A DNA stretch of 42,810 nucleotides from a virus: the UHGV virus genome UHGV-0330108; one strand, given 5' to 3'. Below, piece after piece: positions 4,988-42,093 of the stretch. The notes under the pieces are model-generated. The model was not told the origin of the DNA, made no database searches, and saw only the letters and a program-made list of their open reading frames with translations. Positions within the stretch are counted from its first letter, which is position 1; the number at the start of each line of letters is the position of its first letter. Made by a program: the position numbers and the translations under genes.

Positions 4988-5009
4988 AGCCCCGAAAGGG
5001 GCTTTCTTA
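4988..5009 (+). terminator. hairpin / weak terminator between portal and head morphogenesis genes
   Basis: AGCCCC-GAAA-GGGGCT followed by TTCTTA. Confidence 0.35.
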
Positions 5010-5013
5010 TAGT

Positions 5014-6090
5014 ATGCTATTAACTTTAGCGCCACAGGGTTTATCTATGAGCTTACTTACATCACTAATCAGCCACCAGATATGGCTACAACGCACCGCT
5101 TCCGGCGAAGTGAAAGACCTCGCACCGTTTATTCAGGAGATGCGGGACGAAATCAAACGGCAGGTGTTGCTATTCGGTGACGACGACCGCAGCACCGCGC
5201 GACTGAATAAACTGTTACGTGACCTTGAAGAAGCACTGGCAGGACTTACAGGTGACTGGCAAACAAAGCTGACAGAAGACCTTAAGGAACTGGCGGCGTA
5301 TGAGGCTGAGTGGAACGTAAAGACGCTGACGGCTAACGTTAACGCTGAATTTGTTACGCCTACCGCTGAGCAGGTGTGGTCCGCTGCCGAGTTTCAACCC
5401 TTATCATTAAGCGACAAGCCTGTTGATTTCACGAAGCTGATGTCAGGTTGGGGTGAAACGGAAGTAGCACGTCTTGTAACAGGCGTTAAGATGGGCTTTG
5501 TTCAGGGCAAGACTACGCGGCAGATTGTTGCGGAAGTAGTCGGTAAAGGCGGGCTGGCTGACGTATCAGAGAAATACTCGGCTACGGTAATTCGCACCGC
5601 GCTATCACATGTGTCCAATGAAGCCCGTAACGAGACGTATCACCAGAACGACGACATCATCGAGAAGTACGAGTGGGTGTCAACGCTCGATAGCCGTACC
5701 AGTACGATTTGCAGAGCCAGGGACGGGATGACGTGGGAAATAGGTAAAGGCCCAATGCCGCCCGCCCATCCGAATTGCCGAAGCACCACTGCGCCTGTAA
5801 TCAGTTCCGAGTTCGACTTCCTCGATAAAGGTGCAAAACGGGCGGCTAAGGGTGCAGAAGGCGGTACTCAGGTAAGCGCGGACACCACCTATTACGAGTT
5901 CCTTAAACAACAACCGGCATGGTTTCAGGATGAAGCACTCGGGCCAACCCGCGGTAAGATTTTCCGTAACAGCGGTATATCACCGGAAGAGTTTCGCGTA
6001 ATATCTGTAGATGGTTTCGGGAACCCGCTCTCGCTTAAGCAGATGGCGGAACTCGATAAACGTGTTGCTGATTATCTGAAAGGGGATTAA
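5014..6090 (+). CDS. head morphogenesis protein (Mu F / SPP1 gp7-like minor head protein)
   Basis: Motif WVSTLDSRTSTICRARDGMTW...PPAHPNCRST matches the Mu F-family signature; follows the portal gene. Confidence 0.8.
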   Translation: MLLTLAPQGLSMSLLTSLISHQIWLQRTASGEVKDLAPFIQEMRDEIKRQVLLFGDDDRSTARLNKLLRDLEEALAGLTGDWQTKLTEDLKELAAYEAEWNVKTLTANVNAEFVTPTAEQVWSAAEFQPLSLSDKPVDFTKLMSGWGETEVARLVTGVKMGFVQGKTTRQIVAEVVGKGGLADVSEKYSATVIRTALSHVSNEARNETYHQNDDIIEKYEWVSTLDSRTSTICRARDGMTWEIGKGPMPPAHPNCRSTTAPVISSEFDFLDKGAKRAAKGAEGGTQVSADTTYYEFLKQQPAWFQDEALGPTRGKIFRNSGISPEEFRVISVDGFGNPLSLKQMAELDKRVADYLKGD

Positions 6091-6551
6091 TGATGGGCTT
6101 TTTCAAAGTAACTGACGTACCTTCGCGTCGCGTAGTCCAGTACGCCCGCGTGTCTGGCTCTGGCGAGAACGTGGTGTTTATCGAAGACGAAAGTGTACTC
6201 GGCTCACCGGTAGACGATATGCCGTTTGCGGATAAAACCGGTATTGCGTTGCCAGCGGCTGGTATGCTTTACGAGATTCCGTATCTGGCTGACGCTGGCG
6301 ATGTGTATTTCTCGGCGCAACCGCAGGACGCTGAACTGGCAGACGGCGGCGCAACTATCACCGTCGAAGTTAATGCAGGTAAAGCACCGTACGCGCTGAC
6401 CTGGTATAAAGACGGTAAGGAAGTGGTAAACGCCCCGGAAGAGGCTTTATCTCTGACGGTTAATTCAGTCGGCGAATACTTCGTCAAGGTTACCGATGCC
6501 GATGGTGTAGAGGCCGTAAGTAAAGCGGCGAAGGTTACGAAGCCAGAATGA
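6090..6551 (+). CDS. Ig-like domain protein (possible capsid decoration protein)
   Basis: C-terminal segment TVEVNAGKAPYALTWYKDGKEV...GEYFVKVTDADG is Ig-like; start ATGATG overlaps the previous stop. Confidence 0.5.
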   Translation: MMGFFKVTDVPSRRVVQYARVSGSGENVVFIEDESVLGSPVDDMPFADKTGIALPAAGMLYEIPYLADAGDVYFSAQPQDAELADGGATITVEVNAGKAPYALTWYKDGKEVVNAPEEALSLTVNSVGEYFVKVTDADGVEAVSKAAKVTKPE

Positions 6552-6554
6552 TAA

Positions 6555-6585
6555 AAGGCCCCTTACGGGGCCTTAGTTTTATTTG
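6555..6585. terminator. bidirectional rho-independent terminator
   Basis: AAGGCCCC-TTAC-GGGGCCTT flanked by an A-run upstream and AGTTTTATTT downstream, at a convergent gene junction. Confidence 0.55.
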
Positions 6586-6797
6586 AAGAATATCGCGAAT
6601 TTCTTGTAACCCGCTGGCTCGTTGCGCAGACCGTGTTCGTTAGCAAAACGTTGTATATTGTTAAAGTCATTTTCACCCATTCCGTCCGTATCGAACGTAA
6701 AGAAATTACGTTTGTTCCCGATAAGCACACGGCTTGTGATATCAATGCCGTAAAGTTCTTTGATGGCACGTACAACGTTTGCAGTAGCTTTGTTCAT
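6579..6797 (-). CDS. hypothetical protein (72 aa), isolated minus-strand gene
   Basis: ORF track frame 6579-6896; internal ATG at 6797 preceded by TAAGGAATTTGGAA; a TATAAT-containing 23-mer lies ~33 nt upstream. Confidence 0.5.
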   Translation of the reverse strand: MNKATANVVRAIKELYGIDITSRVLIGNKRNFFTFDTDGMGENDFNNIQRFANEHGLRNEPAGYKKFAIFFK

Positions 6798-6829
6798 TTC
6801 CAAATTCCTTATCTCTCGTTTCGATGTAA

Positions 6830-6852
6830 TGAATAGTACCCTATTATATTGG
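6830..6852 (-). promoter_or_regulatory. promoter/operator cassette TGAATAGTACCCTATTATATTGG (minus-strand TATAAT plus palindrome GAATAG-N4-CTATTA)
   Basis: Perfect TATAAT on the minus strand overlapping a 16-bp palindrome; the identical 23-mer recurs at 16043-16065. Confidence 0.45.
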
Positions 6853-6927
6853 TGTCTGCAAACTATTTGTTTACGTATTCCAGTTATTCCACTCAATTGT
6901 AAATGTTGGAATAAACTATTCGAATAG

Positions 6928-6956
6928 TTGACTTTTCACTAAAAATGTGCTAAGCT
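6928..6956 (+). promoter_or_regulatory. putative sigma70-like promoter (TTGACT-N17-TAAGCT, TG-extended) next to palindrome AACTATTCGAATAGTT
   Basis: -35 is a good match, -10 is weak; palindromic half-sites overlap the -35. Confidence 0.3.
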
Positions 6957-7180
6957 CCACCTGAGCTTGTGAAGTATGAACAAGCGACCGCGGCGCGGGC
7001 AGGTAACGGAGCGGGACGTAAGTCCTGAGTGTAGTTACGCTGACGCGTTCGGAAGGGCCATACTCTATTGCTTGTGTAAAAAGTAACTGGTTTACTGAGA
7101 TTACGCCGTTTCTATGTTTAAATGATAAGGACTAGCGCCCCGCTTTATGGCGGGGCTTTACTTATCGAGAAAGGAGAAAC

Positions 7181-7567
7181 ATGAATCTTAAAGCAACTGT
7201 CGTAGCTGGGGCGTGTTTCATCATCCTGGCTTACGCACACGGCATCTACCAGTATCGCACCGGCTGGAACGAAGGCCGGGCGAATCTCGTTTCGCGGCAA
7301 CAGCAGAAAGCACAGGCTGAGTTAGCGAAGAAAACACAACGGCAGCAGCAGGATGAATCAAAGGCCGCGGCCGCTGACAACGAAGGCAAGACGAAATCAG
7401 AGGTAATTACCCGTGAAGTCGTTAAGTACATTAGAACGCCTGGTCGCAGCGTGTGCACTTTCGATAATGCTCGCGTCCTGCTCAAGTCCCGCGCCGTCGC
7501 AAACGCCAATTCCATCCCCGGATACGACGATGATGCAGCCACCGTGCAAACTGGCAGCACCAAGTAG
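7181..7567 (+). CDS. putative i-spanin (Rz-like)
   Basis: N-terminal TM helix (ATVVAGACFIILAYAHGIY) then a charged, Q/A/K-rich periplasmic region; AAGGAG RBS; contains an embedded +1-frame lipoprotein ORF. Confidence 0.6.
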   Translation: MNLKATVVAGACFIILAYAHGIYQYRTGWNEGRANLVSRQQQKAQAELAKKTQRQQQDESKAAAADNEGKTKSEVITREVVKYIRTPGRSVCTFDNARVLLKSRAVANANSIPGYDDDAATVQTGSTK

Positions 7568-13916: not shown

Positions 13917-13950
13917 AACTAAGGCCCCAAACGGGGCCTTTTTCTTACTC
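13917..13950. terminator. bidirectional rho-independent terminator cassette
   Basis: AAAACT-AAGGCCCC-AAAC-GGGGCCTT-TTTTCTTACTC; the minus-strand gene's stop codon lies in the T-tract. Near-identical copy at 25239-25277. Confidence 0.65.
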
Positions 13951-14175
13951 ATCAATGTTACTTCTGTACTCCCGTAACTTCTCCAGGCTTTCAATTGCTT
14001 CCGCTAAGTCTGTTCCGGTGTCCTTGTGCCCGCGAAGGCCCATACACAATAATTTCTTCAATGCGTGCTGTAACGCCGGGTCGCGGATGTCGAAAGCGCG
14101 GAGCACATCATAAACGTCTACAGTCATAGTGCTGCCGTGGATGTTTGTCATTGTGCGGTTGTATTTTGAAGTCAT
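13945..14175 (-). CDS. hypothetical protein (76 aa)
   Basis: ORF track; last gene of the minus-strand island. Confidence 0.5.
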   Translation of the reverse strand: MTSKYNRTMTNIHGSTMTVDVYDVLRAFDIRDPALQHALKKLLCMGLRGHKDTGTDLAEAIESLEKLREYRSNIDE

Positions 14176-14188
14176 AAATCACTTTCCC

Positions 14189-14659
14189 CTACTCATGGTT
14201 TTCATGGAAACCGTATTTACTCTCCGCGGCTTTACGCGCGGCAACCGCTAGACCAAAATCGTCGTAAAGCCCTAAATGTACTTGTTTGTAGTTAACTTTT
14301 ATAAACGCGCGCCACTTACCCGCGGCTTTGTGGAAACTTACACCTGTAGCCCCGGATTTATTTATCTTTCGCATAGTTTTATTTTTACTGTTCCCTGTAT
14401 TGTCGGTGGCGCGTAGATTTTCTATTCTATTGTCTAGCCTGTTATGGTTTATGTGGTCTATTTGAGTTTTCCTGTCTAAGTTGCATTTATTATAAAGACA
14501 CCATGCTATGCGGTGGACATACACCGTTTTACCACCCATACCGCAGCACAGATAGCCTCTTACACCAACCGTACCAACCTCAGCGCCAGTAGATATCCTG
14601 GTCACCTGCCCCGTCTCAGGGCAGTATTTAAATTGTTTTGAAACATCAATATATCTCAT
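14189..14659 (-). CDS. HNH homing endonuclease with AP2-like DNA-binding domain
   Basis: HNH core GYLCCGMGGKTVYVHRIAW...IDHINHNRLDNRIENL; C-terminal GVSFHKAAGKWRAFIKVNYKQVHLGLYDDFGLAVAARKAA resembles an AP2 domain. Confidence 0.8.
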   Translation of the reverse strand: MRYIDVSKQFKYCPETGQVTRISTGAEVGTVGVRGYLCCGMGGKTVYVHRIAWCLYNKCNLDRKTQIDHINHNRLDNRIENLRATDNTGNSKNKTMRKINKSGATGVSFHKAAGKWRAFIKVNYKQVHLGLYDDFGLAVAARKAAESKYGFHENHE

Positions 14660-15786
14660 CTTAGCATCTCCGGTGAGATTGAAAGCCTACCTACTTCCCC
14701 GAACTCTGAACTATAGGTTATGACGTTAGCGGACCTCTTAGACATCCACCCGCCGCGAGAAGCATATGCATCTTTCGCCGCGAGAGTGCGATGCTGCTCC
14801 ACTACCATATTCCTACTTTCTACAATCTTTTGGTGGTGGAGATGCCCGACATGCGCATAACTGTACTCGCTTTCGCCAAATGCTTTTCTGAACTTAGCGA
14901 TCATAATGGGTTCTACCACCTCAAACCGGCATTTATGTCCGTGTGTAAAGAACAGCGTCGTTTTGCCGTGTTGCACCATCTTATAAACATCCGGCGACGT
15001 ATCGACGAACACACGAGGCTCATTGTCGTATAGCGTACTGAACATCTCAGCCAACCAAATCATGCCCGATTCGTCGTGGTTCCCTTGCACGATAAGCAAG
15101 CGAACATTTTTATGCTTAACGAGGGCCATATCGACAACACGGCGGACCATACGAATCATGTAGCGCACAAGTTTCTGATAGCGCGTGTCCGCATCTAGAA
15201 CATGACCACTTGCAGGTGTAACGGCATCCAGACTATCGAAGTGTGCAAGGTCCCCCAGCAGATTAATAACTCCTGTTCCAGCGTCAGGCGCTTTCTGAAA
15301 CGCCGCGTCGAACCATCGAGAGAACAGGTCTTCCGCAATCTTCATATCCCAGTCGTCGCCGCTCTCGTCGGCCCAGGCCAGCATACCGAGATGAAAATCA
15401 GATACCGTGTAAAGATTGAGTAGCTTGTCGTCACGTTTGGCGCGAATGGCTTTAACAGGCGCAACAGGGGTAATCTCCGACTTCATACCTTCAATTACGG
15501 CTTTCATCAACTCGACCTGACGTTCGGCATCGGTGTCAGTCTTAACCCATTGCAGTTTAGTATTGCCGAACTCGTCAACAAGTGACGACGTCCCTTTAAT
15601 CTTGTAGCCGTCCGGTACAAGGTGACTAACGTCGCGCCCGTGGCCTACGCCTTTCTTAGCCAGCTTCGCTTTACGGATGCGAATTACGCGGTCTGAGATG
15701 CCGTATTTACGGGCGATGTCGATATTCTTCATACCGGCGTTCAATTCTTCCTGCAACTGCTCGTCGGTTATTTTCTTCCGGGCCAT
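14656..15786 (-). CDS. calcineurin-like metallophosphoesterase with N-terminal HTH domain
   Basis: Phosphoesterase motifs in order: SDFHLG, LLGDLAHFD, QGNHDE, FFTHGH, GHLHH; N-terminal NIDIARKYGISDRVIRIRKAK is HTH-like. Confidence 0.7.
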   Translation of the reverse strand: MARKKITDEQLQEELNAGMKNIDIARKYGISDRVIRIRKAKLAKKGVGHGRDVSHLVPDGYKIKGTSSLVDEFGNTKLQWVKTDTDAERQVELMKAVIEGMKSEITPVAPVKAIRAKRDDKLLNLYTVSDFHLGMLAWADESGDDWDMKIAEDLFSRWFDAAFQKAPDAGTGVINLLGDLAHFDSLDAVTPASGHVLDADTRYQKLVRYMIRMVRRVVDMALVKHKNVRLLIVQGNHDESGMIWLAEMFSTLYDNEPRVFVDTSPDVYKMVQHGKTTLFFTHGHKCRFEVVEPIMIAKFRKAFGESEYSYAHVGHLHHQKIVESRNMVVEQHRTLAAKDAYASRGGWMSKRSANVITYSSEFGEVGRLSISPEMLR

Positions 15787-15823: not shown

Positions 15824-16015
15824 TTACTTCTCGTTAACATTCGAGTTGCAAGCCCAGATTAAAATAAATACCCACGGCAGCAGAATCCAACCAAGAAACA
15901 GATTGGCCATGAATATCGCCAACTTCGCTTTATGGTTGCGGAAATACGCAACCAGGAAAGGTGCGAAATAGGCGAGCAGTGCAAACAGAATTAAGGAAAC
16001 TGGTAAACTTGACAT
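15824..16015 (-). CDS. small membrane protein (63 aa from MSSLP...)
   Basis: ORF track frame 15824-16030; second ATG at 16015 has GGAGGG 8 nt upstream; two predicted TM helices. Confidence 0.5.
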   Translation of the reverse strand: MSSLPVSLILFALLAYFAPFLVAYFRNHKAKLAIFMANLFLGWILLPWVFILIWACNSNVNEK

Positions 16016-16042
16016 TTTAAATCCCTCCATTGTTGGTGTGGG

Positions 16043-16065
16043 TGAATAGTACCCTATTATATTGG
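16043..16065 (-). promoter_or_regulatory. promoter/operator cassette TGAATAGTACCCTATTATATTGG, identical to 6830-6852
   Basis: Exact 23-mer repeat with minus-strand TATAAT and the palindrome, directly upstream of the island's first gene. Confidence 0.45.
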
Positions 16066-16181
16066 GGCGCGCAAGTAGTGTGCTAGAATAGGTTTGCGCC
16101 TAGTGTCGCACACGAAAAGCGGGTGGTTCCCGTCTGGCGCATCAACCTTAACCCGTAACCTCTTAACCAAAGGATTAAAGA

Positions 16182-25238: not shown

Positions 25239-25277
25239 AAAAAAACTAAGGCCCCAAACGGGGCCTTTTCTTTACTC
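25239..25277. terminator. bidirectional rho-independent terminator cassette
   Basis: A9-CT-AAGGCCCC-AAAC-GGGGCCTT-TTCTTTACTC; core identical to 13917-13950; contains the stop codon of a minus-strand small gene. Confidence 0.65.
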
Positions 25278-27341: not shown

Positions 27342-27653
27342 TCAATTCCTTATATTGTTGGTGCAGGGATAACTATAATAGTTCGCTATTAGGTCGTCAA
27401 CCTCTTCTTTTGTTCCTACTACAAAAACATTTGCGTCACGTTTACGAAGCCGTTTGTGTTCCCGCAACTGATGGGCCTCCGGTTCCGTGTTTTCGTCTTT
27501 CTTCACCTCGACGAACCATATAACCCCTCCAGGAAGGGCTACCAGCAGGTCAGGCGCTCCGTTTCTACCCTCATAAGACAGCTTACGAACGAGGCCACCA
27601 ATGGCCTCGAATTGCTCTTTTGCGTATTTCTGTATTTTTCCTTCCGGGGTCAT
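27342..27653 (-). CDS. VRR-NUC domain nuclease
   Basis: ORF track frame 27342-27668; ATG at 27653; motif GAPDLLVALPGGVIWFVEVKKDE fits the VRR-NUC/PD-(D/E)XK signature. Confidence 0.7.
   Translation of the reverse strand: MTPEGKIQKYAKEQFEAIGGLVRKLSYEGRNGAPDLLVALPGGVIWFVEVKKDENTEPEAHQLREHKRLRKRDANVFVVGTKEEVDDLIANYYSYPCTNNIRN
27372..27400 (-). promoter_or_regulatory. sigma70-like promoter (minus: TTGACG-N17-TATAGT) with palindrome TAATAGTTCGCTATTA in the spacer
   Basis: Read on the reverse complement; lies inside the 3' end of the VRR-NUC gene, upstream of 27045-27338. Confidence 0.55.
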
Positions 27654-30949: not shown

Positions 30950-30978
30950 ACTATAATAGTTAACTATTCAGGTGTCAA
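30950..30978 (-). promoter_or_regulatory. sigma70-like promoter (minus: TTGACA-N17-TATAGT) with perfect palindrome GAATAGTTAACTATTA in the spacer
   Basis: Consensus -35, near-consensus -10, 17-bp spacer; ~45 nt upstream of the ATG at 30896. Confidence 0.6.
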
Positions 30979-33485: not shown

Positions 33486-33515
33486 ACTATAATAGCGAAC
33501 TATTCATGTTGTCAA
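33486..33515 (-). promoter_or_regulatory. sigma70-like promoter (minus: TTGACA-N18-TATAGT) with palindrome GAATAGTTCGCTATTA
   Basis: Same architecture as 27372-27400 and 30950-30978; divergent from the XRE regulator gene. Confidence 0.55.
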
Positions 33516-33520
33516 TGGGC

Positions 33521-33549
33521 TTTTCTAAAATAATTAATATGGTACTATT
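33521..33549 (+). promoter_or_regulatory. putative promoter of the XRE regulator gene (-10 TACTAT within AATATGGTACTATTCA, weak -35)
   Basis: -10-like hexamer inside an operator-like half-palindrome, ~30 nt upstream of TAAGGAG. Confidence 0.35.
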
Positions 33550-33579: not shown

Positions 33580-33795
33580 ATGCAACCATCTGAACTAGGC
33601 ATCCGTGTAGAACAACGCCGCAAAGAACTTGGCATCTCCCAGCGCCGTCTGGCTGTCATGGCTGGCGTTTCCCAGGGCGCAATTAACCAGCTGGCACTTG
33701 GAGTAACTCAGGACGTCCGCCCGGCAACGCTGTTTAAACTGGCGGAAGTGCTTGAAGTAGACGCCAAGTGGCTGGCGTTCGGTGAAGGGGCTTAA
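33580..33795 (+). CDS. XRE-family HTH transcriptional regulator (Cro/CI-like, 71 aa)
   Basis: HTH segment ISQRRLAVMAGVSQGAINQLALG; TAAGGAG RBS; lone plus-strand gene with its own promoter and terminator. Confidence 0.75.
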   Translation: MQPSELGIRVEQRRKELGISQRRLAVMAGVSQGAINQLALGVTQDVRPATLFKLAEVLEVDAKWLAFGEGA

Positions 33796-36141: not shown

Positions 36142-36375
36142 TTATTCCAGGTCTTCTAAAGTAGCGGTCATTCCGCGAACTTCAGCAACGGCGCTATATT
36201 TCCCGCCAACGTTTTTCACGACACCGGATTTAACCAGTACACGTAACGACGCTTCAATAATGGCTGAACTATAGTACTTAAAATAACTACGGCGCAAGTC
36301 GATAACGCTGCACGACCCTTTTTTACGTGTTAACGAAACGACCGCCGTAAATACGCGTGACTGGAACTCGGTCAT
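36142..36375 (-). CDS. hypothetical protein (77 aa) with C-terminal LEDLE
   Basis: ORF track; coupled to the upstream HTH gene. Confidence 0.45.
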   Translation of the reverse strand: MTEFQSRVFTAVVSLTRKKGSCSVIDLRRSYFKYYSSAIIEASLRVLVKSGVVKNVGGKYSAVAEVRGMTATLEDLE

Positions 36376-36542
36376 TTCACGTTCTCCTTAATCCACGCTT
36401 CCACTTTCTCCGGGTCGAACGTACCCGGCTGACGGCGACCCATAATACGAATACAGCAATCCGGGAACTTCCCACTCTTTAACCAGTTATTCAGCGTACG
36501 GCGGGTAACCCCGATACGCTCCGCTACCTCATTCTGTGTCAT
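36372..36542 (-). CDS. small HTH DNA-binding protein (56 aa from MTQNEV...)
   Basis: ORF track frame 36372-36575 starts at TTG; ATG at 36542 has GAGGGT upstream; HTH-like EVAERIGVTRRTLNNWLKSGKFP. Confidence 0.55.
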   Translation of the reverse strand: MTQNEVAERIGVTRRTLNNWLKSGKFPDCCIRIMGRRQPGTFDPEKVEAWIKENVK

Positions 36543-36603: not shown

Positions 36604-36983
36604 ACATAATTGCACCTATTGACATTATGAAAATCTTCGTTTAAGGTGCTTCTATATCTTAGTTACTTTGATTCCTGTTCACCTTGTAAAACCGCTTAAA
36701 ACGCAGCTGCGCGCAGCGCAAGCAAAGTGTTAAGCGCAAGTTTACTGAACATGAGAATTATCATAACTTTCCTCCCTAAGTATCTCCGGTTGCCCTGGGC
36801 AAGCTCTATTCCCATCGGCAGCATATCTCTTAAGTATCTGATTTTCTTAATGTGCCGTAGATTCACAACCGTAAAAATGTAACGATTATTGGGCAGGCTT
36901 AAGGCCTGCCCTTTAGTTACCAAGTAATAAGAATAAAGGCACAACCCTACCTGAAGAATCACAACGGCAACGTAACTATTCTC

Positions 36984-37012
36984 TTGCACATCCCAACATA
37001 ATAGGATACTAT
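36984..37012 (+). promoter_or_regulatory. putative promoter (TTGCAC-N17-TACTAT) with palindrome TAATAGGATACTATTC over the -10
   Basis: Same hexamers, spacing and operator placement as 38498-38526; ~35 nt upstream of the 37046 gene; coordinates approximate. Confidence 0.45.
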
Positions 37013-37045
37013 TCACTTATCGAAACAAGACAGAGGAGTGGGGGT

Positions 37046-37231
37046 ATGTTTAAGAAGGGTCAGTTGGTGAAAACGAAAGATTTCGGTTATTACGGTGTTA
37101 TAGAACAAATTTCAAGTAAGGTTAACGGGATGTGCTACATCCGTACACCTAACCAGCGTTTCGGTAAGTGGTGCTTCGGGGACGAGATAAAACTCATCGG
37201 CAACAATTTTAAATTCAAAGGGGCGAAGTGA
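37046..37231 (+). CDS. hypothetical protein (61 aa)
   Basis: ORF track; GAGGAGTGGGGG RBS. Confidence 0.5.
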   Translation: MFKKGQLVKTKDFGYYGVIEQISSKVNGMCYIRTPNQRFGKWCFGDEIKLIGNNFKFKGAK

Positions 37232-38497: not shown

Positions 38498-38526
38498 TTG
38501 CACACTGATATAGAATAGGCTACTAT
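38498..38526 (+). promoter_or_regulatory. putative promoter (TTGCAC-N17-TACTAT) with palindrome GAATAGGCTACTATTC over the -10
   Basis: Same architecture as 36984-37012; ~30 nt upstream of GGGAGGAGAG and the ATG at 38558. Confidence 0.5.
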
Positions 38527-38557
38527 TCATTTACACAAATGGGAGGAGAGACAGAAG

Positions 38558-42042: not shown

Positions 42043-42064
42043 ATCTATTTTCTGTAATGACTAG

Positions 42065-42093
42065 TTGACTATTACCTACGACCCTACTATATT
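42065..42093 (+). promoter_or_regulatory. putative sigma70-like promoter (TTGACT-N17-TATATT)
   Basis: Good hexamers and spacing ~35 nt upstream of the 42127 gene. Confidence 0.5.

What the first reader, a model, noticed from the sequence alone, without database searches (positions are those of the whole stretch)
6830..6852. Identical 23-mer TGAATAGTACCCTATTATATTGG upstream of two isolated minus-strand units inside the late region
The 23-mer occurs exactly twice (6830-6852 and 16043-16065), each ~30 nt upstream of a minus-strand gene embedded among plus-strand structural genes. On the minus strand it provides a perfect TATAAT fused to the operator palindrome, with no conserved -35. This suggests activator- or repressor-dependent expression of moron-like genes independently of the late operon.
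Basis: seen in the sequence. Interest (0 to 1): 0.65.

Follow-up and report, generated by a model that had tools for sequence, protein, structure and literature searches.

The report
Portable early promoter of a Kagunavirus phage
The repeated 23-mer is the core of a promoter family, most likely read by the host RNA polymerase, that this E. coli phage places in front of many of its genes, including two small backward-facing gene cassettes in the structural region; the motif is already listed in the literature as a predicted promoter, so it is a tidy but fairly ordinary finding.

Summary
The 23-mer is exact at 6830-6852 and 16043-16065, with none expected by chance. A third copy with 2 mismatches lies on the other strand at 36993-37015.

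The window is a virulent Kagunavirus (K1G-like) siphophage. Read on the transcribed strand, every copy is TTGC(A/G)N-17 nt-TACTAT-TCA, followed by about 25-30 nt, a Shine-Dalgarno sequence and ATG.

The 23-mer contains a 14-bp palindrome, AATAG-N4-CTATT. It occurs 7 times in the window (0.02 expected), always inside a sigma-70-like promoter, in two different registers. Its arms are invariant and its centre is variable, which is the signature of an operator.

Both minus-strand units end at the same bidirectional terminator, AAGGCCCC-N4-GGGGCCTT. In relatives, homology breaks exactly at the 23-mer and at the terminator. The same promoter precedes at least 17 unrelated genes, so "moron-like" fits unit 1, which carries a T-even Ip9 homologue. 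Unit 2 (Imm and phosphoesterase) is conserved.

The motif is already published as a PHIRE-predicted promoter (PMC9825357, PMC7203180). The regulator is unidentified; the candidates are a 434-Cro-like HTH and an HTH_17 protein. No transcript ends were mapped.

The parts
6830..6852 (-). 23-mer copy 1. It forms the spacer, -10 and discriminator of promoter P1, at about -26 to -4 relative to the predicted start site near 6826.
6856..6861 (-). P1 -35 hexamer, TTGCAG
   Evidence: It lies 17 nt from TACTAT. The position is conserved in all family members.
6833..6838 (-). P1 -10 hexamer, TACTAT
6832..6845 (.). 14-bp palindrome AATAG-N4-CTATT, the putative operator, overlapping the P1 -10
6579..6797 (-). 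P1 cargo: a 72-aa homologue of the T-even internal head protein Ip9 that lacks the N-terminal 18 residues
   Evidence: phrog_7673 at 4e-27; tblastn 52-60% identity to T-even ip9; alignment
6555..6574 (.). Bidirectional intrinsic terminator AAGGCCCC-N4-GGGGCCTT closing unit 1
   Evidence: (dG -16.3 and -17.5 kcal/mol, z -4.5 and -3.8)
16043..16065 (-). 23-mer copy 2, the core of promoter P2. The -10 TACTAT is at 16046-16051 and the palindrome at 16045-16058.
16069..16074 (-). P2 -35 hexamer, TTGCGC
15824..16015 (-). First gene of unit 2: superinfection immunity (Imm) membrane protein, 63 aa from the Shine-Dalgarno-preceded ATG
   Evidence: Pfam Imm_superinfect 1.6e-12; phrog_1039
13945..15786 (-). 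Rest of unit 2: metallophosphoesterase / DNA-repair exonuclease (14656-15786), HNH endonuclease (14189-14659) and a 76-aa protein (13945-14175)
13921..13940 (.). Bidirectional terminator closing unit 2, with the same stem as at 6555-6574
36984..37015 (+). Promoter P3: TTGCAC-17-TACTAT. It contains the third copy (2 mismatches) of the 23-mer and drives the rightward genes from 37046.
38498..38527 (+). Promoter P4, same family: TTGCAC-17-TACTAT with palindrome AATAGGCTACTATT
33536..33549 (+). Promoter P5 of the Cro-like gene. It is an extended -10 (TGgTACTAT) with a one-mismatch palindrome AATATGGTACTATT and no -35.
33580..33795 (+). 71-aa HTH_3 (434-Cro-like) protein, candidate operator-binding regulator
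   Evidence: Pfam 1.1e-12; best PDB match 434 Cro, 3.7e-7 over the full length
36372..36542 (-). 56-aa HTH_17 (MerR/excisionase-like) protein, the alternative candidate regulator. Its own promoter TTGATT-17-TATACT (36603-36575) has no palindrome.
27372..27400 (-). Class B promoter TTGACG-17-TATAGT, with the palindrome (27377-27390) in the spacer
30950..30978 (-). Class B promoter TTGACA-17-TATAGT, with the perfect palindrome AATAGTTAACTATT
33486..33515 (-). Class B promoter TTGACA-18-TATAGT with the palindrome at 33491-33504, divergent from P5
25248..25267 (.). Third copy of the bidirectional terminator, at the convergent junction between the tailspike gene and the replication module

Best explanation
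The 23-mer is the core (about -26 to -4) of a phage-specific family of promoters most likely read by the host sigma-70 RNA polymerase.

Inferred from sequence and conservation:
- The polymerase uses TTGC(A/G)N as the -35 and TACTAT, 17 nt downstream, as the -10. It would start about 7 nt later, near 6826 and 16039 on the minus strand. That gives a leader of about 25-30 nt carrying a Shine-Dalgarno sequence.
- Transcription of each leftward unit ends at a GC-rich bidirectional terminator. This terminator also separates the unit from the converging structural-gene transcripts.

Inferred, with the binding protein untested:
- A 14-bp palindrome, AATAG-N4-CTATT, is embedded in the promoter. It overlaps the -10 here and lies in the spacer of the sister class TTGACA-17/18-TATAGT. 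It is probably the operator of a small dimeric phage HTH protein that occludes the polymerase. That would tie the two structural-region units to the same regulon as the early and replication genes.

Shown by comparative genomics:
- Promoter and terminator form the two ends of a plug-in cassette. Relatives differ by deletion or replacement of the cargo, with breakpoints exactly at these two elements.
- This explains why the two copies are identical and why unit 1 looks like a moron.
For: Copies and orientation:
- There are two exact copies and one 2-mismatch copy, against none expected. All three have the same orientation relative to a downstream Shine-Dalgarno sequence and ATG.

Promoter elements:
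- TTGC(A/G)N-17-TACTAT is invariant in 39 unique promoter sequences from 12 Kagunavirus and Jerseyvirus genomes, and in 55 of 55 instances of the exact 23-mer, including 38 IMG/VR stretches.
- The sister class B promoters are the top sigma-70 consensus hits in the window, at 10-11 of 12 positions.

Palindrome:
- It occurs 7 times against 0.02 expected, and every occurrence is in a promoter.
- The arms are invariant and the central 4 bp take more than 10 forms. It sits in two registers relative to the -10.
- It is not a stable hairpin (dG -2.3 kcal/mol, z about 0).
- In Cornellvirus-type relatives (VSiA, TS6) it is absent. Orthologous promoters there carry a different palindrome, TATTA-N6-TAATA, although the host is Salmonella as for Jerseyvirus. 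So the palindrome tracks phage lineage, not host.

Candidate regulators:
- A 71-aa HTH_3 protein has 434 Cro as its best PDB match (3.7e-7).
- An HTH_17 protein is 82-84% conserved across the two genera that share the palindrome (70-86% within Kagunavirus) and is absent where the palindrome is absent.

Terminators:
- The same stem occurs at 6555-6574, 13921-13940 and 25248-25267.

Mosaic breakpoints:
- Homology with relatives resumes at window 6830-6832 (L001, L003, L005) and at 16041 (L005, L009).
- Homology stops at 6579-6584, just past the terminator.
- The whole stretch 6550-6875 is missing in L006, L008 and L009.
- At least 17 unrelated first genes follow the exact 23-mer.

Other support:
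- There is no phage RNA polymerase gene.
- In a Kagunavirus RNA-seq time course, the Imm gene falls in a different temporal class from the flanking structural genes and groups with the polymerase and methylase genes (PMC12645636).
Against: - No transcript 5' ends, in vitro transcription or protein-DNA binding data exist for this phage group. Every functional step is inferred from sequence.
- By strict consensus the class A hexamers are only moderate (TTGCAN 3/6, TACTAT 4/6), and the built-in promoter scanner did not call them.
- Much of the conservation among paralogous copies could reflect recent recombination or gene conversion rather than selection on each base.
- The recognition helix of the Cro-like protein differs between Kagunavirus (SQGAINQ) and Jerseyvirus (SQSLITH), although both share the palindrome. 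Jerseyvirus and Cornellvirus helices are similar although their palindromes differ. HTH_17 proteins this small are not typical dimeric palindrome binders.
- The only RNA-seq study places Imm and the DNA polymerase gene in a 'late' class. That does not fit a simple model of early expression followed by repression, though the time course is coarse.
Confidence: 0.72

Rival explanations
1. TATAAT is the -10 of a promoter with no -35, so it needs a phage activator or is gated by a repressor. It would be dedicated to moron-like genes in the late region.
For: TATAAT is present in both exact copies. No conserved hexamer lies 16-18 nt upstream of it. A palindrome abuts it.
Against: TATAAT lies only 7 nt from the conserved TTGC. 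It degenerates to CATAAT (P3) and TAGAAT (P4) in sister promoters, whereas TACTAT and TTGC at 17 nt are invariant. The family also drives early and replication genes, not only the two units.
Confidence: 0.08
2. The conserved sequence is kept mainly as a recombination joint. It would be a PeSL-like mobile regulatory cassette whose identity between copies reflects cassette exchange or gene conversion. The palindrome would be a by-product and not bound by any regulator.
For: Mosaic breakpoints coincide with the 23-mer edge and with the terminator. At least 17 unrelated cargo genes follow the identical 23-mer. In T4-type PeSLs, inverted repeats sit between -35 and -10 or over the -10 (PMC2839356).
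Against: In class B promoters the flanks and centre vary while both 5-bp arms stay invariant. The palindrome type switches as a symmetric unit in Cornellvirus-type genomes at orthologous promoters that keep a homologous leader. That pattern is expected for a protein site, not for plain homology tracts. This rival is compatible with the best explanation for the promoter and recombination parts.
Confidence: 0.15
3. The motif is a promoter for a phage-encoded RNA polymerase, as labelled for the identical motif in the fBC-Eco01 genome paper.
For: PHIRE recovers it as a phage-specific repeated 20-mer. PMC9825357 lists it under 'Phage RNAP promoter'.
Against: No RNA polymerase gene was found. None of the 81 annotated genes of Bas74 is one, and none of the 10 largest ORFs in the window has an RNA polymerase domain. 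The motif also has sigma-70 geometry.
Confidence: 0.02
4. The palindrome reflects a symmetric, bidirectional promoter. Each arm plus its flank would serve as a -10 for one direction, so that one site starts both the leftward unit and the rightward structural genes.
For: The opposite strand of class A sites reads TATTAT or TATATT, with weak TTG-type hexamers 16-17 nt upstream. Examples are TTGGTG-16-TATTAT at P2 and TCGATA-17-TATGTT at P3. In Jerseyvirus Ent1 the Imm promoter overlaps a good opposite-strand promoter, TTGACG-17-TATTAA.
Against: In class B promoters neither arm supplies a usable antisense -10, yet both arms are invariant. Separate rightward restart promoters exist next to both units: TTGACT-17-TAAGCT at 6927-6955 and TGcTAGAAT at 16081-16089.
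Confidence: 0.08
5. A host repressor binds the palindrome. From memory, the perfect site AATAGTTAACTATT resembles the E. coli TrpR operator core ACTAGTTAACTAGT.
For: There is only the recalled resemblance to the trp operator, differing by one symmetric base. This is a lead, not a test.
Against: The palindrome type follows phage genus, not host. Jerseyvirus and Cornellvirus both infect Salmonella but carry different palindromes. The changed base falls in the CTAG core that, as recalled, TrpR needs.
Confidence: 0.03

Closest known systems
PHIRE-predicted 'phage promoters' of Kagunavirus genomes (fBC-Eco01, PMC9825357; VB_EcoS-Golestan, PMC7203180)
   Same: This is the same motif. fBC-Eco01 PP1 and PP2 (TGAATAGTACCCTATTATAT) are identical to the first 20 nt of the 23-mer, and the consensus is tgAATAGTa-ccTATTat-T. 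There are seven sites per genome, at the same kinds of positions.
   Different: Those papers list the 20-mers only. They give no -35/-10 assignment, operator, terminator pairing or comparative analysis. One attributes the sites to a phage RNA polymerase that these phages do not encode.
PeSLs (promoter-early stem-loops) of T4-type phages (Arbiol et al. 2010, PMC2839356; Comeau et al. 2014, PMC4122927)
   Same: - Both are repeated sigma-70-like promoter cassettes with an inverted repeat between -35 and -10 or over the -10, followed by a Shine-Dalgarno sequence and start codon.
- Both sit in front of small variable genes and at indel or replacement breakpoints between close relatives.
- One cargo here is itself a homologue of a gene from the T-even internal-protein locus.
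   Different: - PeSL stem-loops are stable, often G/C-rich, and act as terminators. Here the inverted repeat is AT-rich with 5-bp arms and is not stable.
- The terminator here is a separate GC-rich hairpin at the other end of the unit.
- The host phage is a siphovirus, and the units are transcribed against the structural genes.
- No mini-circles or reporter data exist.
Cro/CI-type operators overlapping early promoters in lambdoid phages (the 434 OR/OL system)
   Same: The site is a 14-bp palindrome with conserved outer bases and a variable centre, overlapping the -10 or spacer of early promoters. The phage encodes a 71-aa protein whose best structural-database match is 434 Cro. That protein's own promoter carries a degenerate copy of the site.
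   Different: - The phage is virulent, with no CI or integrase.
- Operators are single and dispersed over about 8 promoters, rather than tripartite at one switch.
- The half-site sequence is unrelated to ACAA.
- Binding is untested, and phyletic data fit the Cro-like protein no better than the HTH_17 protein.
Morons of lambdoid phages (a gene with its own promoter and terminator inserted between conserved genes; concept recalled from Hendrix and colleagues)
   Same: Unit 1 is a promoter, one gene and a terminator. It sits between two genes that are adjacent in relatives lacking the cassette (L006, L008, L009). Other relatives carry different cargo.
   Different: The phage is not temperate, so there is no expression from a prophage. 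The promoter belongs to the phage's own general family rather than being brought in with the gene. Unit 2 is a conserved four-gene operon.

Membership tests
Sigma-70 (housekeeping) promoter | A -35-like and a -10-like hexamer separated by 16-18 nt, with the key bases TTG and TAnnnT | tested here: met
   TTGC(A/G)N-17-TACTAT is present in all 39 unique family members and all 55 exact 23-mer instances. The class B sisters score 10-11 of 12.
Sigma-70 (housekeeping) promoter | Transcription starts about 7 nt downstream of the -10 with the host holoenzyme | not testable with these tools
   No 5'-end data exist. The only RNA-seq paper gives gene-level temporal classes.
Repressor operator of the Cro/CI (HTH_3) type | A short palindrome with conserved arms and a variable centre, overlapping core promoter elements | tested here: met
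   AATAG-N4-CTATT occurs 7 times against 0.02 expected. The arms are invariant and the centre variable, and it lies over the -10 or in the spacer.
Repressor operator of the Cro/CI (HTH_3) type | A cognate HTH protein is encoded by the phage and binds the site | tested here: inconclusive
   A 434-Cro-like protein is present. Its recognition helix does not co-vary with the palindrome type across three genera, whereas presence or absence of the HTH_17 protein does. Binding cannot be tested here.
Repressor operator of the Cro/CI (HTH_3) type | Clustered multiple operators forming a switch next to the regulator gene | tested here: not met
   There is one site per promoter. Only two sites, 45 bp apart, lie at the Cro-like gene (33491 and 33536).
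Moron | A gene with its own promoter and its own terminator | tested here: met
   P1 is at 6830-6861 and the terminator at 6555-6574 (dG -16.3 kcal/mol).
Moron | Inserted between genes that are adjacent in related phages, and variably present | tested here: met
   For unit 1, the stretch 6550-6875 is absent in L006, L008 and L009, and the cargo is replaced in L001, L003, L005, L010 and L011. For unit 2 this is not met: it is conserved in 305 records.
Moron | Expressed from a repressed prophage | tested here: not met
   The phage group is described as virulent. No integrase is annotated in relatives.
PeSL mobile regulatory cassette | A repeated sigma-70-like early promoter in front of variable small genes, at indel or replacement boundaries | tested here: met
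   compared with the definition in PMC2839356
PeSL mobile regulatory cassette | A stable stem-loop inside the motif that acts as a terminator or attenuator | tested here: not met
   The hairpin formed by the palindrome has dG -2.3 kcal/mol and z -0.16. The strong terminator is a separate element.
PeSL mobile regulatory cassette | Formation of mini-circles, and promoter and terminator activity in reporters | not testable with these tools
   This needs experiments.
Phage-RNA-polymerase promoter | The phage encodes its own RNA polymerase | tested here: not met

The most novel reading that the evidence does not exclude
Guernseyvirinae siphophages may run a PeSL-like 'plug-and-play' system outside the T4-like phages. 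A portable promoter-operator at one end and a shared bidirectional terminator at the other would let unrelated accessory genes be swapped into fixed slots of the structural module by recombination. Examples of such cargo are Imm, a sliding clamp, and a T-even Ip9 homologue lacking its N-terminal 18 residues. Every insert would be automatically wired into one phage-wide regulon. That regulon would be governed by a small HTH protein whose operator specificity has switched between genera (AATAG-N4-CTATT versus TATTA-N6-TAATA).
Probability: 0.35. Interest if true: 0.5.

Novelty: new member of a known kind. Interest (0 to 1): 0.3.

Why it matters
If correct, this gives a usable transcription map for a phage genus that is widely isolated for therapy. 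About eight promoters most likely read by the host polymerase would share one operator, and three shared bidirectional terminators would divide the genome into units.

It corrects a published attribution of the motif to a phage RNA polymerase. It also identifies the exact joints at which these phages exchange accessory genes, which may include anti-defence genes.

The promoter and terminator pair is a natural insertion site for engineering cargo into Kagunavirus and Jerseyvirus phages. None of this changes a general principle, because the parts are standard.

Tried and rejected
- Rfam scan of the whole window found no family.
- Folding the palindrome as RNA on either strand gave no stable hairpin, so neither an RNA element nor a terminator reading holds.
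- Folding the conserved 6962-7165 leader gave z -1.7, which is not convincing as a structured RNA.
- Pfam found nothing for the P1 cargo. PHROGs and tblastn were needed to identify it. A PDB sequence search for it gave only chance EF-hand-like hits.
- I tried to pick the regulator by co-variation across genera (Kagunavirus, Jerseyvirus, Cornellvirus-type). With three lineages it is inconclusive and points weakly to HTH_17 rather than the Cro-like protein.
- I looked for gene-level expression values in the supplements of the K1B4 RNA-seq paper. None are held, only annotation tables.
- A literature search for Jerseyvirinae promoter descriptions found nothing beyond the two Kagunavirus genome papers.
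- The phage-RNAP reading, the host-factor reading and the cruciform reading are rejected or down-weighted, as explained under rival explanations.

Full report
**Observation.** The 23-mer TGAATAGTACCCTATTATATTGG is exact at 6830-6852 and 16043-16065 (+ strand). None of 100 shuffles gave any match, even allowing up to 3 mismatches. The same search found a third copy with 2 mismatches on the opposite strand at 36993-37015.

When all three are oriented alike, each is followed by a short leader, a Shine-Dalgarno sequence and an ATG:
- Copy 1: gene 6797->6579.
- Copy 2: gene 16015->15824. An earlier ATG at 16030 has no Shine-Dalgarno sequence.
- Copy 3: the + strand gene at 37046.

**Context.** The window is a complete-genome-sized relative of the K1G-like E. 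coli siphophages (Kagunavirus, Guernseyvirinae). It is about 91% identical to vB_EcoS-Ro145c2YLVW over 11 kb. Annotated relatives give the gene map:
- Rightward structural genes are interrupted by small leftward islands.
- A leftward replication module follows.
- A divergent control region lies near 37 kb.

No RNA polymerase gene is present.

**Anatomy of the element.** On the transcribed strand the copies read ...TTGC(A/G)N-17 nt-TACTAT-TCA....

I scanned 12 genomes: the window, eight Kagunavirus genomes and three Jerseyvirus genomes. This recovered 39 unique sequences of the family, which I call class A. In these:
- TTGC, the 17-nt spacing and TACTAT are essentially invariant.
- The TATAAT position varies (CATAAT, TAGAAT).

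The exact 23-mer occurs in 38 further stretches of IMG/VR viral contigs of 41-45 kb. In all 55 instances the TTGC is at the same distance. The window has five class A promoters:

| Promoter | Palindrome start | Strand | Note |
|---|---|---|---|
| P1 | 6832 | - | copy 1 |
| P2 | 16045 | - | copy 2 |
| P3 | 37000 | + | copy 3 |
| P4 | 38514 | + | |
| P5 | 33536 | + | extended -10 variant TGgTACTAT in front of a Cro-like gene |

**The palindrome.** The 23-mer contains AATAGGGTACTATT, an instance of AATAG-N4-CTATT. That pattern occurs 7 times in the window against 0.02 expected. Every occurrence is in a promoter-like intergenic site.

Three of the sites belong to a second class, class B, at 27377, 30955 and 33491, all on the minus strand.
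- These have near-consensus hexamers, TTGAC(A/G)-17/18-TATAGT, and are the best sigma-70 matches the scanner finds in the window.
- The whole palindrome lies in the spacer.
- Among 26 unique class B sequences the two 5-bp arms are invariant, while the central four bases take more than ten forms.

So the palindrome is conserved in two different registers relative to the polymerase contacts. It does not make a stable hairpin. This pattern is what a binding site for a dimeric protein looks like.

Two Cornellvirus-type relatives (VSiA, TS6) have no AATAG-N4-CTATT site at all, even allowing one mismatch. Their orthologous promoters instead carry TATTA-N6-TAATA, and one of them keeps a homologous leader. 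They infect Salmonella, as Jerseyvirus does. The palindrome therefore follows phage lineage, not host. This argues for a phage-encoded binder.

**Candidate regulators.** There are two.
- A 71-aa HTH_3 protein (33580-33795). Its best PDB match is 434 Cro over its full length. Its own promoter carries a one-mismatch copy of the palindrome, and that mismatch creates the TG of an extended -10.
- A 56-aa HTH_17 (MerR/excisionase-like) protein (36372-36542). Its own promoter has no palindrome.

The phyletic evidence is split:
- The Cro-like protein is only about 51% identical between Kagunavirus and Jerseyvirus, with different recognition-helix residues, although both genera share the palindrome.
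- The HTH_17 protein is 82-84% identical between those genera and is absent from the Cornellvirus-type genomes that lack the palindrome.

With three lineages this is suggestive only, and I leave the binder unresolved.

**The units.**

Unit 1:
- It consists of promoter P1, one 72-aa gene and a bidirectional terminator at 6555-6574.
- The gene belongs to a PHROG annotated as internal head protein. It is 52-60% identical to the Ip9 proteins of T-even phages.
- It starts exactly after the 18 N-terminal residues of Ip9, MKTFNELFNE.... From memory, that stretch resembles the T4 capsid-targeting sequence.

Unit 2:
- It consists of promoter P2 followed by four genes: Imm (superinfection immunity), a metallophosphoesterase/exonuclease, an HNH endonuclease and a 76-aa protein.
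- It ends at a terminator at 13921-13940 with the same stem, AAGGCCCC-N4-GGGGCCTT.
- A third copy of this terminator separates the tailspike gene from the replication module at 25248-25267.

**Variability.** The unit 1 locus is a hot spot. Only 2 of 401 related records cover 80% or more of it. Among the fetched genomes:
- The same promoter precedes at least six unrelated genes at this slot.
- The cassette 6550-6875 is missing altogether from three genomes.
- Homology with the others stops at 6579-6584, just past the terminator, and resumes at 6830-6832, the edge of the 23-mer.

At unit 2, two genomes replace Imm by a 108-aa secreted-looking protein, with the breakpoint at 16041. Otherwise the unit is conserved across the subfamily. 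Other genomes have a further slot between the portal and head-morphogenesis genes, carrying for example a sliding clamp behind the same promoter. Over all data the exact 23-mer precedes at least 17 unrelated first genes.

**What is known.** The motif is not new.
- The fBC-Eco01 genome paper lists seven PHIRE 'phage RNAP promoters' with consensus tgAATAGTa-ccTATTat-T. Two of them are identical to the first 20 nt of this 23-mer.
- The Golestan paper lists the same sites.
- Neither paper analyses them, and the RNA polymerase attribution is unsupported.

The closest described system in behaviour is the PeSL of T4-type phages. PeSLs are repeated sigma-70-like early promoters with an inverted repeat between -35 and -10 or over the -10. 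They sit in front of variable small genes and at recombination breakpoints. The difference is that PeSL stem-loops are stable terminators. Here the inverted repeat is weak and the terminator is a separate element.

The only transcriptome of a Kagunavirus (K1B4) is coarse. It places Imm in a different temporal class from the neighbouring structural genes, together with the leftward polymerase and methylase genes. This fits independent transcription. It does not establish early expression, because that class is the paper's 'late' one.

**Verdict.**
These are independent units, an operator-like palindrome is present, and unit 1 is moron-like. It is wrong on promoter anatomy and on the motif being specific to these units.
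- The feature is a member of known kinds. It is most likely a host-polymerase promoter with an embedded operator, doubling as a cassette boundary. It was already listed, though not understood, in the literature.
- All functional steps remain inferred from sequence and comparison.

Noticed in passing
window 6579-6797 (-): The unit 1 cargo is a homologue (52-60% aa identity) of the T-even internal head protein Ip9. It begins exactly after Ip9's N-terminal 18 residues (MKTFNELFNE...), which from memory resemble the T4 capsid-targeting sequence. A siphophage therefore appears to express a version of a T-even injected protein from its own promoter without that N-terminal stretch.
   Followed up: partly
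window 6555-6574, 13921-13940, 25248-25267: Three bidirectional intrinsic terminators share the same stem, AAGGCCCC-N4-GGGGCCTT. Each lies at a convergent junction between rightward structural genes and a leftward unit.
   Followed up: yes
window 6876-7300 (+): This block holds a rightward promoter (TTGACT-17-TAAGCT, 6927-6955), about 180 nt containing a 36-aa ORF, and a hairpin terminator (7137-7156) before the spanin gene. It is 95-97% identical in all relatives including a Jerseyvirus, which is higher than the flanking genes. Partial second copies occur in the early regions of L006 and L010. There is no Rfam hit and the fold z-score is only -1.7. It may be a leader or a small RNA.
   Followed up: partly
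window 6914-6929: A perfect 16-bp palindrome, AACTATTCGAATAGTT, abuts the -35 of that rightward promoter. It is built from the same half-sites as the operator but in swapped order. A one-mismatch operator (AATAGTTGACTTTT) overlaps the -35. A similar arrangement (ACTAGTTGACTATT with TTGACT-17-TATATT) lies at 42060-42093, and both are conserved in all genomes examined.
   Followed up: partly
window 16062-16089 (+): An extended -10 promoter candidate, TTGGGG-16-(TG)cTAGAAT, lies back-to-back with P2 and points at the tail assembly chaperone gene (16182). The TGnTAGAAT is conserved in both sequence variants seen in relatives. It suggests the structural region is restarted after each leftward island rather than being one operon.
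   Followed up: partly
window 14189-14659 (-): An HNH endonuclease gene inside unit 2 is present only in the window and in Ro145c2YLVW (L003) among the genomes compared. Homology in the others skips about 14175-14647. It is probably a homing-endonuclease insertion.
   Followed up: partly
window 5008-5021 (+): A one-mismatch palindrome, TATAGTATGCTATT, lies directly after the portal-gene terminator. This is the empty version of a slot that in other genomes holds a leftward cassette, for example a sliding clamp in Shashou or an amidase in Ent1. The long ORF call starting at 5014 begins inside this site and is probably too long.
   Followed up: partly
L051 (VSiA) 7554, 14749, 37322; L052 (TS6) 872, 22955, 29675: Cornellvirus-type relatives carry a different promoter-embedded palindrome, TATTA-N6-TAATA, at orthologous promoters. 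They lack the HTH_17 gene. Their primase-helicase gene is inverted so that it follows the Cro-like gene.
   Followed up: partly
window 36740-36764 (-) and 36891-36911: Two small features lie between P3 and the HTH_17 gene. One is a 22-aa hydrophobic ORF with a strong Shine-Dalgarno sequence on the minus strand. The other is a GC-rich hairpin whose T-run is on the + strand only. The leftward early promoter of this region was not pinned down.
   Followed up: no
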